From Podospora anserina (taxonomy: Eukaryota), in the NCBI GenBank assembly GCA_017654855.1, contig JAFMPO010000001.1, positions 1,054,001 to 1,118,000 on the forward strand: 64,000 bases of DNA. The letters run 5' to 3'. Positions 46,060 to 51,717 of this stretch are shown in pieces. Made by a program: the position numbers and the translations under genes. Below the pieces are notes generated by a model that saw only the letters and a program-made list of their open reading frames with translations, searched no databases and was not told where the DNA came from. Positions within the stretch are counted from its first letter, which is position 1; each line of letters begins with the position of its first letter.

Positions 46060-49000
46060 TTACACGTCCACGTCCACGTCCATATCTGCAGCATCCCCAG
46101 GAACGGGAACAACCCCATCCTCCCCTTCACCTAGAACCACCTTGCCGCCGCCTTCGTAGGTGACTCTCCGCCACCCAGTCTCCTCCTCAGGGTCCTTGAT
46201 GAGCTCCACTGTGGGGAAATAATGCTCGTTCTTCTTCATGGTAACCATCCACGGCACACTATCAAAAGTCACTGCCCTCATGCGGAAATCTGCGAAACTT
46301 GTCAGAATGTGGTAAGAAGGGCGGTGCGTACTAGAAATAAACTTACAGGTATTGTCGGGAATCCTAACAACCGCAGCCAAGAAGCTCTCCAGGTCCGGAG
46401 TCGGCTTGTTGTTGACATGTGTAATGAAGTTGGTCGGCGCCAACCCATACTGATACGCGGGGGATCCACGAGTCCGGGCAGAGACATAGACCTCGCTGAA
46501 TAGTTCGCTGATTTGTTGTCTGACGGCATGGTGTGGTCTGTGAATGATAGCACCGCAAAAGGAGATTGCCCGGTGCGTCTCGACGTCATCAGCCGCGACG
46601 GTGGGTAGTTTCAACTTCAACTCCTGGCGCTCGCGCACAATCACGGCATCCAGAAACTCGTTGGCGTACATGACATCGAGATCAGATATTCTGGTGATCA
46701 TACTGCCGTTCAGGGTCAAAATTATGTCGCCCTCAAGCAGAGCCGGGGCCTCTTTCTCCTCCACACGCTCACAGGTGCACTTGGTGACCATGAAGAGCTG
46801 GTGATGGGCAGTATTGGCCACAGAGACCTTCTCGATCCATTCCTCAGAGACACCCATTAGGCGCGCCTGAAGCATCTGGACAGCGCGGAGCTCGACTGGC
46901 AACATGCGCAGCTTGGGGACGATGCCATCCTGAATCTGCTTGAGGACGGGCAGCAGAGTAGGAGTGGCAAGGCCGAGATGGTACTCCTCATCTCTGTGGG
47001 TGGAATGAGAACGCTCTCCCAGATATGTCAACCACAGGGCCTGAACGGTACCGTCCTGCGCAACCAAGACTCCGCTGCCGCACTGTCCACTGAGACTGGT
47101 GTCGACAGTGATAGCGTCGAAATTGACAGCACGATAACGGGGCGCCCCGGAGTTTGCCGGAATCGTCACAGCAAAACTCTCGGTGACCGTGGTGGCCGCG
47201 TGAACGATTCGGCCGATTCTGTTGTAGCCGATGAAGTAAGTTGAGGCACCTTGGCTGATCTGCTCGTTACCCAGTTTGGCGCTAAGAACCGGCGCTTCAA
47301 CCAGCTTAGGATCATACTGAATGATGGCGTAGTTTTGCAGAGGGTGGAGAAAGACCACCTTGCCCTCCACCACAATGGAATCGGCGATAGTGATGCTGAT
47401 ATCGCAGAGATCGTACGGAACGATGGCTCTGGAGATCACCACGAGGCCCTTCTCTGCATCCACGACCAGGCCCATTCCCCACTTCCGGTTCTTCGGGAAG
47501 CCGTCCAGCTTGACCGGAAGAGTGCATTGAACATGAACAAAGCTTCTAACGAGATCTGCCACGGCAGGGTGAGATGTGTGCTCCAGCTGAATGAATCTGG
47601 CCTTGGTGGGGACCGGAGGGATTGGGGGAAGGGGGTCCGCGAGGTTGGTGAAGTCCCAAAGTCCAGTTTTGTCGTTTCTGACTGCCAGCTTCATCTTCTT
47701 GGCCCAGTGGCGGTCGACGAAGATAATGGTGGTGTTCAAAGTGTGCAGATCTCGCAGATGTTTATATGTGACAACAACCCTAGACTTATCCGGAATCCCC
47801 TTCAAAACGTCAATGAAGGTATCGAGGTCGGGTGTCTTCTTATGGTCCACAGTCTGGATTAGCCACCCGCATTCAGAGCTCTCAAAGCGCCAAGAACCAC
47901 CGGCTTCGCAGACGTAGACACCCTTGCAGGCCACACCGTACAGACGGGCTTGCTGGTACGACAACTCGTGAAAGCTACCGCCCGCAACCGAGACGAATCG
48001 ATCAGGCGTAATCTTATGCAGATCACCGACCTCCACCTCGACTTCGACCTCATCGCCGCCACGCAGCACCAGAAGCTTGACAGTACCTCCAACACTGGAG
48101 TCCAGAATATCATCCAGGCGAATGAACTGAGTCAGCATTTCACCGTTGACTTTGATCAGCACATCGCCTTCCTCGATCTTCTTGTGCGAGGGACCCCCAG
48201 GGAGAATAATTTCGGCAACCAACATGTTGGTCTCCTTGGGGAACTTTTCGCGGACTTGAGCCTCCCACTCAGGGGTCAGGCCCAATCTCCGGCATTCGTC
48301 GAACGGCTTAAGAACGAACTGAGTTTGGATATCTCCGCGGGTGATGGGATTTCCTTCTTGCAGACACTTGAGCGCGCGGAGAGGGCGGTCTAATGGGAGG
48401 AAGTAATCTGTGGAAGCACCGTCGCTTCTCCCTCCAGCTTGAAGCGCCACGGCATATCCATCGATGTCTACCACGGGACTGCCCGAAGAACCACCGCTGG
48501 CTGCGGCGCTAGCCTGGTAGTAACATGTGTTGAAGTCGCTGTACCCTTCACCATATTCGGGAGCATTCCGGTCCAGTCTGCTGATCACACCCGAGAGGAT
48601 ACTGAGCTTTTCTCCAGCATCGTTGCCGACCACTCTAATCTCAATGCCCACCTTTGCCAGATCTGGCCGAAGCTGGAGGGCCTCAACAGGCATGTATTTG
48701 ATGGCTTTGGGGTCGAATTTCAGGATGCCGAAGTCGTGGACCGGATCGCGATAGACGGGGTAGGCGTCAACCTCCTCGTGGTTATCAAACACGCAGTAAC
48801 CCCAGAAGGGTCCTGACCCAACAACGTGACGATTTGTCAAGATGTACCTATGATGAGTGTGGAAATCAGCACATATTCACACGCTTACACCCAAGCGTAA
48901 TAACTGACCCTCTCTCCGCATCTACCACGAACCCCGTGGCCTCGCTGGTCAAGGCGGGGTCTGTATCGAAGCTACATGTCTGGCAAAAGCGGATTGAGAC

Positions 49001-49261
49001 GACATTTCGTACCACCCGCTGGATGGTTTCTTGCCATTCGGCGGTATCAGGACCAGCTGGGAGGAGGGCAGCCAGCTTGTCGTCAGGCTCTTCGTATTCG
49101 GGCTCGATGAAGCTGTCGTCGGGTCTGTCGGGGGTGTTCTCGCCGCCCGAAGTATCCAGATCCCCATTGGCGCGATGATGCTTGGGGTGGCGGGCATCCA
49201 GTGCATGGGGTGGCTCTTTGCGCTTGGTACGAACTGACGGGGTCAGGTTGGAACCGTTCAT
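46060..49261 (-). CDS. NMA111: HtrA-family serine protease Nma111/Ynm3 (possible upstream start at 49582)
   Basis: Basic N-terminal NLS (KRK..KHHR), [28 protein letters not shown], catalytic GGSSGSPV, duplicated protease and PDZ modules. Introns ~48845-48908 and ~46290-46347. Confidence 0.95.
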
Positions 49262-50327
49262 CGTGGCGGTGATGGGGTTGACGGTAGATGGATGTGGTGG
49301 TGATGGTAGTGATGATGACACAGTTGTGGAAAATCGCTGGGCGGTCGTACGTAGAAAGAAGAGGTGATTGTTGAACTTTTTGCCTGGTAGATTCAAGGCT
49401 CTGAAGGGGAATGGGTGATTATGATAGTTGGTAAATAAAGTGGAATGAGTGTGTTGACGAGGTGAACGGGAAGCTACTGTTTGGTAGCTGATTGTGAGTC
49501 TGGCTGGTGTAACCAAGCTCTGTTTACTGGATCTGTTGGCAGAAACACCTGAGCGCGTGCCGAAAAAGAGAGCTGGCCGCATTCACAGCCTGGAAGAAAA
49601 TACCGAGAAGTGTTGGTTGTTGAGAAAAAGAGGCCCAGCTAAGAATGGGATTGCTCTGTCAATTCACACTCGCGACGAATTCTTGCGTTGCCTTGCAGCA
49701 ACCTGCAGGGCCACAGAGGCAAGGCGCATATGCCGATTGGCGGGGTGGAGTGAGCCTACCACCAGGAGCTTATCTAATCAAACTCCATCCAATTTCATCA
49801 TTCAGCGCATCCAAATATTTCAAACACTACTAACACAACACATAGGTAAATCGCAGAGGAGACGGCATGCTTCTTGAAACACATAGACTCTATAACAACG
49901 CAATCTTTTTTTTCACTCCCCCCCGACTCCCAGTGTATCTTTGACCCGTCACAAGACATGTTTCATGGTAAGGTTTCAAGCAAACATTTATGAGACTTCG
50001 TAGACATCCCAAGTGCCCAACGTTCAGGGGGGTAGGAAAAGCGTTTTCAGCTGAGTCAGCGGTGCTGATTGATTTACCAACTGGCACTTGATGGGAAATT
50101 GCCTCGGAAGCTCTCACCGTCTTGTAGGCTCGAGGTATGGACACGTATAGAAATTCTCCTCTTATGTTTGAGGGCAGCCAGTTGGAGATACGGTATGTAT
50201 GATCATGGCAAATTGATTAGCAGGCGAATTTGGTTCACAAGAACAATTTGATCCACAAGAACAAGAAACCAGCAGGCAATGCTGCATTATGTATTCACAC
50301 CAACTAGCAACCACAATACCCGCCTTC

Positions 50328-51717
50328 TTAGGCTGGGAGCTGGAAGTCCTTATACGTCCACTTCTCTGTGATCTTGGTCTTGGCCAGCCTCTTGTAGGGA
50401 ATCTTTCTCCGAGCCTCCATTTTGCCCCGAACCAACATGCTCCTGTACCTGTCCTTGAGCAGGTTGCCTTCTGGCTTCAGGAGTCTCAACGAATCCTGAA
50501 GCTCGTCTGGAAGCACAAGCTCCAAGTCCTTCTCCGGCAGCCTGTACCGGCCAAACTGTTTCCTCCGCAGCTTCTCGTCATCACCAATCTCCTCCGCATC
50601 ACTGAACTCGGCCTTTTCAAGGGCCAACTGCCTTTCCTTCTCTGCCACCTCCAACGCAATTTGCTTGATCCGCTCGGCCTGGGCATTCTTTGCCTTCATG
50701 GCCGCTTCGTGCTTCTGCCTCCGTTCTTCCTCCTTTCTTCTCTTGATTCTGTTTCTCTCAGCCTGTGTTTTGCGTCTTGGCCGCTTGGCCTTGACATTGA
50801 GCTCCTCTCCCGCACTCTCGAATCCTTCCCAAGCAGAATCGTCCTCCCACTCTGAAAGATCCGCCCTTGCCTCGGCAGCTTCAGCCTCGGCGGCTGATCG
50901 AGCGGCGGCCTCAAGTTTAATCCTTTCCGCTTCTAATTCGGCAAGACGCTTCTTCTCGGCCTCCACAGCCTTCTCGCTTTCCTCGATCAACCGTTCTCGA
51001 TACTCGGTGAAGTCGGGGTTGTAACTGGCGCCACCCTTCGGTACATAGACAGCAGGGATCGGTTTGCCGTTGGCAGAGAGTGAGATGGATTGTTGTTCGA
51101 GGGTCTTGGGCTTCTTGGGCTTCTCTTTCTCGGGCAGGAAAGCCAGCTCGACAGCCTTCTCTGGCTCTGGCTGTGGCTCGTCGGCCCAAGGGTCAAATGC
51201 GGCATCGACGATGTCAACCGTTGAGTCGTGTTGCCCATCTGCCACCCTCTTTAATCTGCTGAGCTCCTTGCCGCTGACATACTCCTTGCGCTGCCTTTTG
51301 ACTGGAAGAACACCATCTGTGGTCTTGTCGTGAGCGGGGCGCTTGCGCATAGGCACAGCCGGTACTGCTGACCGAGCCGCAAGAATCTCATCTGACTTGA
51401 GGCCCTTCTTGATCTTGGGGAACTTCTTGGTGATAGAGGCATCGCCCTTGACGTCGAGAACGAACAGATCGGCAGAATCCTTTTCCGCAATAACTCCACT
51501 GCAAAAGCACAATTGGTTAGCGACCGCAATCGCACATTCAAAAAGCAGGCATAATCGAGTCCTACCCAATAATCTTTTGAGTATTCAGCTGGTCAAGGCC
51601 CTTCGTGATGTCGGTAACGTCGACATTCTTGCGCCACGCCTTCTTGCCCTTCCTGGATGGTTGTTTGTACTGCGATGGGGCATCGATATTGCCCGAGGGG
51701 GCCTTGAGAACAGGCAT
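50328..51717 (-). CDS. NOP53: 60S biogenesis factor Nop53
   Basis: QPSRKGKKAWRKNVD, LFVLD (Mtr4 arch-interacting-type motif), RRKTQAERN, LPDELQDSLRLLKPEGNLLKDR, EKWTYKDF. One intron. Confidence 0.95.

What the first reader, a model, noticed from the sequence alone, without database searches (positions are those of the whole stretch)
49262..49582. NMA111 has an in-frame 107-aa extension that looks like a mitochondrial presequence
Seen: a true ATG at 49582 is in frame with the conventional start (49261, ACGATG). The 107 added residues ([31 protein letters not shown]..) contain no Asp or Glu, are R/S/T/L-rich and include an MPP-like R-F-S-T site. Known: yeast Nma111 is mainly nuclear, while the metazoan HtrA2/Omi protease is mitochondrial. 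Inference: alternative initiation or TSS choice gives nuclear and mitochondrial isoforms of this cell-death-linked protease.
Basis: partly seen in the sequence, partly recalled or inferred. Interest (0 to 1): 0.7.

Follow-up and report, generated by a model that had tools for sequence, protein, structure and literature searches.

The report
Conserved second start of fungal Nma111
Filamentous fungi appear to keep a weak extra start codon in front of the gene for Nma111, a protease described as nuclear, which would add a mitochondrial-type address tag to a share of the protein; the mitochondrial location itself is predicted, not shown.

Summary
Observation confirmed: the gene is Podospora anserina Pa_1_24240 (annotated short). 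An ATG at 49582 opens 107 acid-free codons in frame with 49261. One case is weak evidence (open and acid-free in 0.53% of shuffles). Conservation carries the finding. In unannotated fungal DNA, 31 of 32 dereplicated filamentous-ascomycete loci (window included) have an in-frame upstream ATG 59-113 codons ahead, against 1 of 32 in each other frame; 0 of 4 yeast-like loci do. The upstream ATG has a conserved weak context (-3 T in 24 of 31, A in none). Out-of-frame ATGs between the starts are depleted (4 vs 24), as are Asp/Glu. Published transcript ends lie 108-115 nt upstream of it. Best reading: leaky scanning gives a minor presequence-bearing, probably matrix, form and a major nuclear form.

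The parts
49583..49697 (-). 5' leader upstream of the first AUG; holds no ATG
   Evidence: Table S1 of PMC9801653 lists 5' UTRs of 436 and 429 nt for Pa_1_24240 counted from the short start, i.e. about 49697 and 49690 (my conversion). Contigs of 4 runs end at 49563, 49581, 49591/49623 and 49629. ATG list.
49580..49588 (-). Upstream AUG (49582-49580) in a weak context, preceded by an in-frame TGA
   Evidence: Across 31 loci: -3 T 24, C 4, G 3, A 0; TG at -3/-2 in 19 of 31 vs 8% background.
49262..49582 (-). 107-codon in-frame N-terminal extension, presequence-like (no D/E, 12 R+K, no transmembrane stretch)
   Evidence: Counterparts in 31 of 32 dereplicated loci and in 38 of 120 and 29 of 114 database proteins examined.
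49532..49582 (-). First 17 codons of the extension: the part that is conserved within fungal orders and the likely import signal proper
   Evidence: Codon tables and alignments; Arg excess in the first 20 residues and raised hydrophobic moment, pooled over 31 loci.
49325..49336 (-).
   Evidence: lost in P0125, absent in P0004 and P0124.
49259..49261 (-). Downstream (conventional) AUG in good context, A at -3; start of the annotated 1027-aa form
   Evidence: start of P0123 = B2ASP9 / PODANS_1_24240; purine at -3 in 23 of 31 loci.
49172..49231 (-). Basic, bipartite-NLS-like motif (residues 11-30 of the short form), present in both forms
   Evidence: K-R-K nearly invariant in alignment A1. Its function as an NLS is inferred from what I recall of yeast Nma111.
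48909..49582 (-). Coding exon 1 (long form; the short form begins at 49261)
48848..48908 (-). Intron 1, 61 nt, GT..AG
   Evidence: Skipped in contigs of all 4 runs laid; sequence.
46347..48847 (-). Exon 2: Trypsin_2 and PDZ domains; catalytic His, Asp and Ser motifs at 48837-48823, 48741-48727 and 48495-48475
   Evidence: identical to the matching part of B2ASP9.
46290..46346 (-). Intron 2, 57 nt, GT..AG; inferred, no reads laid here
   Evidence: Sequence; exon lengths add up to 1134 aa, the length of P0003.
46060..46289 (-). Exon 3 to the stop codon
49664..49729 (-). 21-codon ATG ORF in the same frame, closed by a stop; its ATG lies upstream of the listed transcript ends, so probably not translated from these mRNAs

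Best explanation
One NMA111 mRNA carries two in-frame AUGs. The first sits in a weak context kept by selection, so most scanning ribosomes pass it, meet no other AUG and start at the good-context second AUG, making the 1027-aa nuclear/soluble protease. A minority start at the first AUG and make a 1134-aa precursor whose acid-free, Arg/Ser/Thr/Leu-rich N-terminus is a cleavable mitochondrial presequence. With no membrane anchor, this form most likely ends in the matrix as an ATP-independent quality-control protease. SHOWN: the open frame, its conservation, the weak/strong context pair, AUG depletion, composition, and transcripts that include the first AUG. INFERRED: translation from both AUGs (about 0.9), mitochondrial import (about 0.8), leaky scanning as the main switch, matrix location, cleavage and function. 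Transcription starts near or just past the first AUG may add to the ratio.
For: Unannotated loci were chosen by exon-2 peptides, blind to the 5' end. In-frame upstream ATG at least 50 codons ahead in 31 of 32 groups (30 of 31 without the window) vs 1 of 32 in each other frame; 0 of 4 yeast-like loci. Contexts: first AUG -3 T 24/31, A 0/31 (background 28% and 27%); second AUG -3 purine 23/31. Out-of-frame ATGs in the extensions 4 vs 24.2 +/- 4.4 in codon shuffles, 0 of 2000 as low; all 4 have T or C at -3 and close before the second AUG. D+E 34 vs 82.6 +/- 6.9 (lowest of 300 shuffles 65); 1.4% in frame vs 4.3% and 4.8% in the other frames; Arg in the first 20 residues 85 vs 56 +/- 7.3 (highest 80); hydrophobic moment 0.557 vs 0.500, p 0.004; best 19-residue hydropathy at most 1.54. 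First codons change mostly synonymously in three of four groups (pN/pS 0, 0.51, 0.54). Transcript 5' ends upstream of the first AUG. Dual-AUG leaky scanning for mitochondrial forms is described for N. crassa (PMC7049704 section 19).
Against: No direct localisation. [quoted passage not shown] N. crassa NCU05200 occurs twice in the supplement of PMC8877502: in the S100 'cytosolic' list (read) and in a second row that I take by its layout to be the S100 table; no mitochondrial listing was seen, though that table may hold only known or predicted mitochondrial proteins. B2ASP9 was not found in a P. anserina mitochondrial complexome supplement (file cut when stored) nor in a P. anserina proteome table. 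The extension is long for a presequence, total Arg is only weakly enriched (236 vs 208 +/- 13, highest shuffle 242), and an R-x-[FLY]-S-type motif in the last 35 residues (11 of 31 vs 4.0 +/- 1.8, highest 13; pattern chosen after looking) is not clearly above chance. Sordariales pN/pS is 0.85 and the pooled third-position excess is marginal (42 of 100, p 0.043). Contigs of 2 of 4 runs stop short of the first AUG. Loci are related, so the p-values overstate independence. No TargetP or MitoFates run was possible.
Confidence: 0.7

Rival explanations
1. Same two isoforms, but set mainly by transcription start choice: long mRNAs make the presequence form and mRNAs starting between the AUGs make the nuclear form.
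For: Contig ends cluster right around the first AUG (49563-49629), two of four runs short of it; PMC7049704 describes TSS choice backing up start-codon choice.
Against: TSS choice alone does not need a weak first context, yet it is conserved. Both listed transcripts begin upstream of the first AUG. Contigs cannot show starts.
Confidence: 0.1
2. The extension is translated but is not a mitochondrial signal: it attenuates translation, destabilises the long form, masks the NLS or targets another compartment.
For: No mitochondrial listing in the supplements searched; no conserved cleavage site; unusual DNA-level conservation of the first ~50 nt in Helotiales-like loci, synonymous sites included, with a 3-codon out-of-frame ORF.
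Against: Frame-specific loss of acids, N-terminal Arg excess and amphiphilicity fit a presequence; no hydrophobic core for a signal peptide. An attenuating uORF would not need to stay in frame in 31 of 32 loci.
Confidence: 0.13
3. The long form is the only product; the short annotation is wrong and Nma111 of moulds is simply mitochondrial.
For: First-AUG rule; many current annotations use the long form, e.g. N. crassa XP_962199.2 and B. cinerea B05.10 Bcnma.
Against: The second Met, its good context and the K-R-K motif are kept; the first context is poor; AUGs between the two are purged. The N. crassa protein is in the S100 fraction.
Confidence: 0.03
4. The region is an untranslated leader; G-poor, AUG-poor DNA is open and acid-poor by chance.
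For: Single-locus odds are modest; 7-9 substitutions in 107 residues vs 1-4 in 1027 within the species complex; the other two frames are also often open for 50 codons or more (9 and 16 of 32).
Against: An in-frame ATG in 31 of 32 vs 1 of 32; 0 stops in frame vs 46 and 52 in the other frames (partly by construction, since the 31 were those with an open frame); shuffles leave 6.7 of 31 open.
Confidence: 0.04

Closest known systems
Leaky dual-AUG dual localisation in Cryptococcus and Neurospora crassa (Wallace et al. 2020, PMC7049704; section 19 and passages read, supplements searched)
   Same: Weak first AUG, strong in-frame second AUG, predicted mitochondrial targeting sequence between them; reported as common in N. 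crassa.
   Different: Examples named there are tRNA synthetases, Pus1 and glyoxalases, with a median spacing of 69 nt in C. neoformans; here a protease with 177-339 nt spacing. Nma111/NCU05200 occurs neither in its main text nor in the supplements held, which may not list N. crassa genes one by one.
S. cerevisiae Nma111/Ynm3 and B. cinerea BcNma (fungal clade of DEG7-like HtrA proteases)
   Same: Same domain layout and catalytic motifs; database names agree.
   Different: Described as nuclear (passages). The four yeast-like loci lack the extension. GenBank ADN67560 'NMA' of B. cinerea is the 1028-aa short form while the genome annotation is 1102 aa, so a construct built on it could not show a mitochondrial form; that link to the published localisation is my inference, the original paper was not read.
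Animal HtrA2/Omi
   Same: HtrA-family serine protease with an N-terminal mitochondrial presequence; linked to cell death through IAP proteins (passages).
   Different: Not a true orthologue. One protease domain rather than the duplicated layout. By recall it has a membrane anchor, sits in the intermembrane space and exposes an IAP-binding motif; no anchor is seen here and the motif was not tested.
Arabidopsis DEG7
   Same: Same family and layout; reported inside an organelle (chloroplast), degrading damaged protein (PMC3194040 passages).
   Different: Plastid rather than mitochondrion; no dual start described in the passages read.

Membership tests
Nma111/Ynm3/DEG7 proteases | N-terminal trypsin-like domain with His/Asp/Ser motifs followed by PDZ domains | tested here: met
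   PF13365, PF12812, PF17820, PF00595, PF13180; motifs located.
Nma111/Ynm3/DEG7 proteases | Duplicated layout with a second, degenerate protease domain, about 1000 aa | tested here: inconclusive
   Two stretches each for PF13365 and PF12812 and 1027 aa; loss of the second triad was not checked residue by residue.
Leaky dual-AUG dual-localised genes | Two in-frame AUGs on one mRNA | tested here: met
   listed transcript ends upstream of both; contigs of 2 of 4 runs span both.
Leaky dual-AUG dual-localised genes | First AUG in weaker context than the second, no competing AUG between | tested here: met
   judged by the -3 base, not by a species-specific Kozak score.
Leaky dual-AUG dual-localised genes | Initiation at both AUGs in vivo | not testable with these tools
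   Needs ribosome profiling or N-terminomics.
Cleavable mitochondrial presequence | Net positive, acid-poor, hydroxylated-rich, amphiphilic N-terminus without a transmembrane core | tested here: met
   Pooled tests on 31 extensions; the window's own moment (0.50) is only at the pooled shuffle mean. No reference set of true presequences was built.
Cleavable mitochondrial presequence | MPP R-2/R-3 cleavage motif | tested here: inconclusive
   R-F-S-T not conserved; motif in 11 of 31 vs shuffle maximum 13.
Cleavable mitochondrial presequence | Drives import into mitochondria | not testable with these tools
   Supplement searches gave no mitochondrial listing.
HtrA2/Omi | Transmembrane stop-transfer after the presequence | tested here: not met
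   Best Kyte-Doolittle 19-residue mean 0.38 in the window, at most 1.54 in 31 extensions.
HtrA2/Omi | IAP-binding motif exposed on processing | not tested
   The cleavage site is unknown.

The most novel reading that the evidence does not exclude
Filamentous ascomycetes share an unrecognised mitochondrial HtrA-type protease, made from a TG(A/G)AUG start tuned to be leaky. The stringency of start-codon selection would then set how Nma111 is split between nucleus and mitochondria under stress or ageing: a lineage-wide, independent route to the mitochondrial location of animal HtrA2, missed because yeast lacks the extension and the reference sequences and at least one deposited clone are the short form.
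Probability: 0.25. Interest if true: 0.82.

Novelty: new member of a known kind. Interest (0 to 1): 0.62.

Why it matters
Reviews contrast the nuclear fungal Nma111 with the mitochondrial animal HtrA2. If the long form is imported, that contrast holds for budding yeasts but not for moulds, and deletion phenotypes in moulds may mix nuclear and mitochondrial roles. P. anserina is a model of mitochondrial protein quality control and ageing, so one more candidate mitochondrial protease can be tested with two point mutants. It also explains why databases annotate orthologues at about 1025 or about 1100-1160 aa: both starts are probably right.

Tried and rejected
No RNA holder was on record; the four runs laid are guesses of RNA, supported by the intron-1 joint, and contigs cannot give starts or levels. 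Conserved RNA structure at the first AUG: none (mean z between -0.43 and +0.10 over 13 windows; whole region z -0.82). Neighbour-gene control across loci: tblastn of the upstream neighbour found no hit in the fungal loci, so it could not be done. AlaRS as a positive control for context: an in-frame ATG 95 codons upstream with C at -3, unverified and uninformative. An aldehyde-dehydrogenase search meant to build a presequence reference set was not followed up. ESM Atlas with the extension: no usable hit. Pfam: nothing on exon 1. Wrong-frame translations. The second half of the script crashed and was redone. Literature: no paper in the held library had NCU05200, nma-111, Pa_1_24240, MoNMA111, Afnma111 or 'nma111 filamentous'; listings showed no title or abstract start on a mitochondrial Nma111 isoform; NMA111 is absent from the main text of PMC6582344; passages of PMC11192938, PMC7006503, PMC5841409 and PMC4255311 added nothing on an isoform. 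PMC2613113 (yeast Ynm3) is not held; my recollection that it reports a small mitochondria-associated fraction is unchecked. Rows dropped before the count: of 80 loci, 29 at 36-58% identity (L052-L062, L064-L081) were not examined; L040 and L046 lack upstream DNA, L027 begins past the start, L049 and L051 gave no recognisable start; L012 and L018 are cut by the contig end (open for all 68 and 94 codons available); 9 near-duplicates were merged.

Full report
WHAT IS THERE. The window holds a three-exon gene on the minus strand. Its two larger exons, read from the ATG at 49261, are identical to the matching parts of B2ASP9 / PODANS_1_24240 of Podospora anserina, annotated at 1027 aa. Pfam gives Trypsin_2 and PDZ domains, and the catalytic His, Asp and Ser motifs are intact. 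Only one place in the genome matches exon 1. The ATG at 49582 is in frame, adds 107 residues without Asp or Glu, follows a TGA directly and has T at -3; the ATG at 49261 has A at -3; no ATG lies between them in any frame. For this single locus the pattern is suggestive only: 0.53% of 20,000 dinucleotide shuffles are both open and acid-free, and the upstream neighbour has a 63-codon in-frame upstream ATG of its own, acidic and outside its listed transcript.

IS THE FIRST AUG ON THE mRNA? Contigs of four runs from four studies, guessed to be RNA, all skip intron 1. They end at 49563, 49581, 49591/49623 and 49629, so two of four pass the first AUG and two stop 19 and 1 nt short; contigs cannot show starts. 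Table S1 of PMC9801653 (rows seen; method passages) lists two StringTie transcripts with 5' UTRs of 436 and 429 nt from the short start, which I convert to about 49697 and 49690, 115 and 108 nt upstream of the first AUG. These are coverage-based ends, not cap mapping.

CONSERVATION IN ANNOTATED PROTEINS. Among the 120 best hits (of 432 found), 38 are long, 78 short and 4 unparsed; among 114 new hits (best 120 of 298 listed), 29 are long, 77 short and 8 unparsed. The long N-termini have at most one acid in the first 30 residues in 37 of 38 and 27 of 29. The same species often appears in both lengths: N. crassa 1163 and 1026 aa, P. oryzae 1117 and 1029, B. cinerea 1102 and 1028. Annotations are biased towards open frames, so I turned to raw DNA.

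CONSERVATION IN UNANNOTATED DNA. One search returned 80 loci (the best 80 of 464 confirmed), found by two exon-2 peptides. After the exclusions listed under Tried and rejected, 42 filamentous-ascomycete-like loci plus the window formed 34 groups, two cut by contig ends. In 31 of the remaining 32 an in-frame ATG lies 59-113 codons before the conserved start with no stop between; the other two frames score 1 of 32 each; four yeast-like loci have only 5-34 open codons and no such ATG. Where several upstream ATGs exist (L014, L021, L022, L047) I took the nearest one at 50 codons or more, except L022 (64 rather than 62). By best hit against a reference set whose class labels I supplied from memory, the 31 include 5 Sordariomycetes, 4 Leotiomycetes, 2 Eurotiomycetes, 1 Lecanoromycete and 19 mostly Dothideomycete-like loci, some weakly placed. 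The exception, L037, is open for 84 codons without ATG and has ATC in the same TGG context 79 codons up: a possible near-cognate start, untested.

SIGNS OF LEAKY SCANNING. The first AUG has T at -3 in 24 of 31 and A in none (background 28% and 27%), and TG at -3/-2 in 19 of 31 (background 8%); the second has a purine at -3 in 23 of 31. A purine at -3 marks a good context in the fungi analysed in PMC7049704 (passage on C. neoformans). Out-of-frame ATGs between the two starts number 4 against 24.2 +/- 4.4 when codons are shuffled, and against 93 in equal lengths of downstream coding DNA. Ribosomes therefore appear to scan across the extension to the second AUG, which argues against a long-form-only gene. 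The loci are related, so formal p-values are too small, but the extensions of different classes look unrelated in sequence (by eye).

SIGNS OF A PRESEQUENCE. Pooled over 31 extensions: D+E 34 vs 82.6 +/- 6.9; Arg in the first 20 residues 85 vs 56 +/- 7.3; helical hydrophobic moment 0.557 vs 0.500 (p 0.004); no 19-residue window above 1.54. The first 16 codons are conserved within orders with mostly synonymous change in three hand-picked groups (pN/pS 0, 0.51, 0.54) but not clearly in Sordariales (0.85); pooled third-position share 42 of 100, p 0.043. The rest drifts fast: 7-9 substitutions in 107 residues vs 1-4 in 1027 within the species complex. Weak points: total Arg is near the shuffle range, the window's own moment is only average, a cleavage motif is not clearly enriched, and R-F-S-T is lost in close relatives. 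No trained predictor could be run.

RESULTS AGAINST. A review states that Nma111p and BcNma are exclusively nuclear (PMC11596484, passage); another says yeast Nma111 is not mitochondrial (PMC5613156, passage); PMC10565124 saw yeast Nma111-GFP mainly in the nucleus (passage). The yeast statements fit the missing extension in yeast-like loci. For B. cinerea the deposited NMA record is the short form, which may explain the result; the original paper was not read. In PMC8877502, N. crassa nma-111 is in the S100 list, and I saw no mitochondrial entry (supplement hits and one part of 31 read; passages). B2ASP9 was not found in the supplements of PMC8699231 (mitochondrial complexome, file cut when stored) or PMC10886707. 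These fit a dominant short form and a scarce long one, but they give no positive sign of import. Supplements of bioRxiv preprints and papers of subscription journals could not be seen and may hold localisation data.

HOW IT MOST LIKELY WORKS. Most ribosomes skip the weak AUG and make the NLS-led protease; a fraction make the precursor, whose N-terminal basic amphiphilic segment leads it into mitochondria, where it is trimmed at a site not yet located. Lacking an anchor it should reach the matrix (inference from general knowledge of import). A quality-control role is the simplest guess, in line with plastid DEG7 degrading damaged protein (PMC3194040, passages). An HtrA2-like release in cell death is possible but has no support here. 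Overall confidence 0.7; a further 0.1 goes to the same two isoforms made by TSS choice.

NOVELTY. The mechanism is known and called common in N. crassa (PMC7049704, section 19), so this is a new member of a known kind. I found no report for Nma111 in the searches, nor in that paper's text or supplements, nor among this scan's notes. Interest 0.62: lineage-wide, at odds with the 'nuclear only' description, and testable with two point mutants, but the mechanism is familiar and import is not shown.

Noticed in passing
L008, L010, L011, L013: about -6 to +50 around the upstream ATG (e.g. L008:175-235): In Helotiales-like loci this stretch is almost invariant at DNA level (0 amino-acid changes, 3 synonymous, in 15 codons) while the rest of the extension diverges; it contains a 3-codon out-of-frame ATG ORF at +16 (seen in L008, L010, L013). 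No conserved fold was found. Unexplained.
   Followed up: partly
L037, 79 codons upstream of the conserved start: The one filamentous-type locus without an upstream ATG has an 84-codon open frame with ATC in the same TGy-TGG context that precedes ATG in other loci: possible near-cognate start.
   Followed up: partly
window 51906-51718, minus strand: The upstream neighbour (NOP53-like, name recalled) has an in-frame ATG 63 codons before its conventional start at 51717; acidic, and upstream of the 91-nt 5' UTR listed for Pa_1_24250. Looks like chance.
   Followed up: partly
window 50161: C>G difference in contigs of runs X2 and X3, in the 3' UTR region of the upstream neighbour; not covered in X7 and X16. 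Strain difference is the simplest reading.
   Followed up: no
L082 (G000:C1, alanyl-tRNA synthetase): 111 open codons before the conventional start, with an in-frame ATG 95 codons up and several near-cognate codons; presequence-like in its lower part.
   Followed up: no
G000:C4:402023-402529 and G000:C6:2486824-2487267: Two further Trypsin_2 (PF13365) matches in the genome; not examined.
   Followed up: no
L052-L062, L064-L081: Metagenome loci matching most of the Nma111 core at 36-58% identity, many as a single long piece; possibly bacterial full-length relatives of a family described as fungal and plant only in PMC3194040. Not examined.
   Followed up: no
window 49866-50087: A low-depth 222-nt contig of run X2 lies in the intergenic stretch between the two genes.
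   Followed up: no
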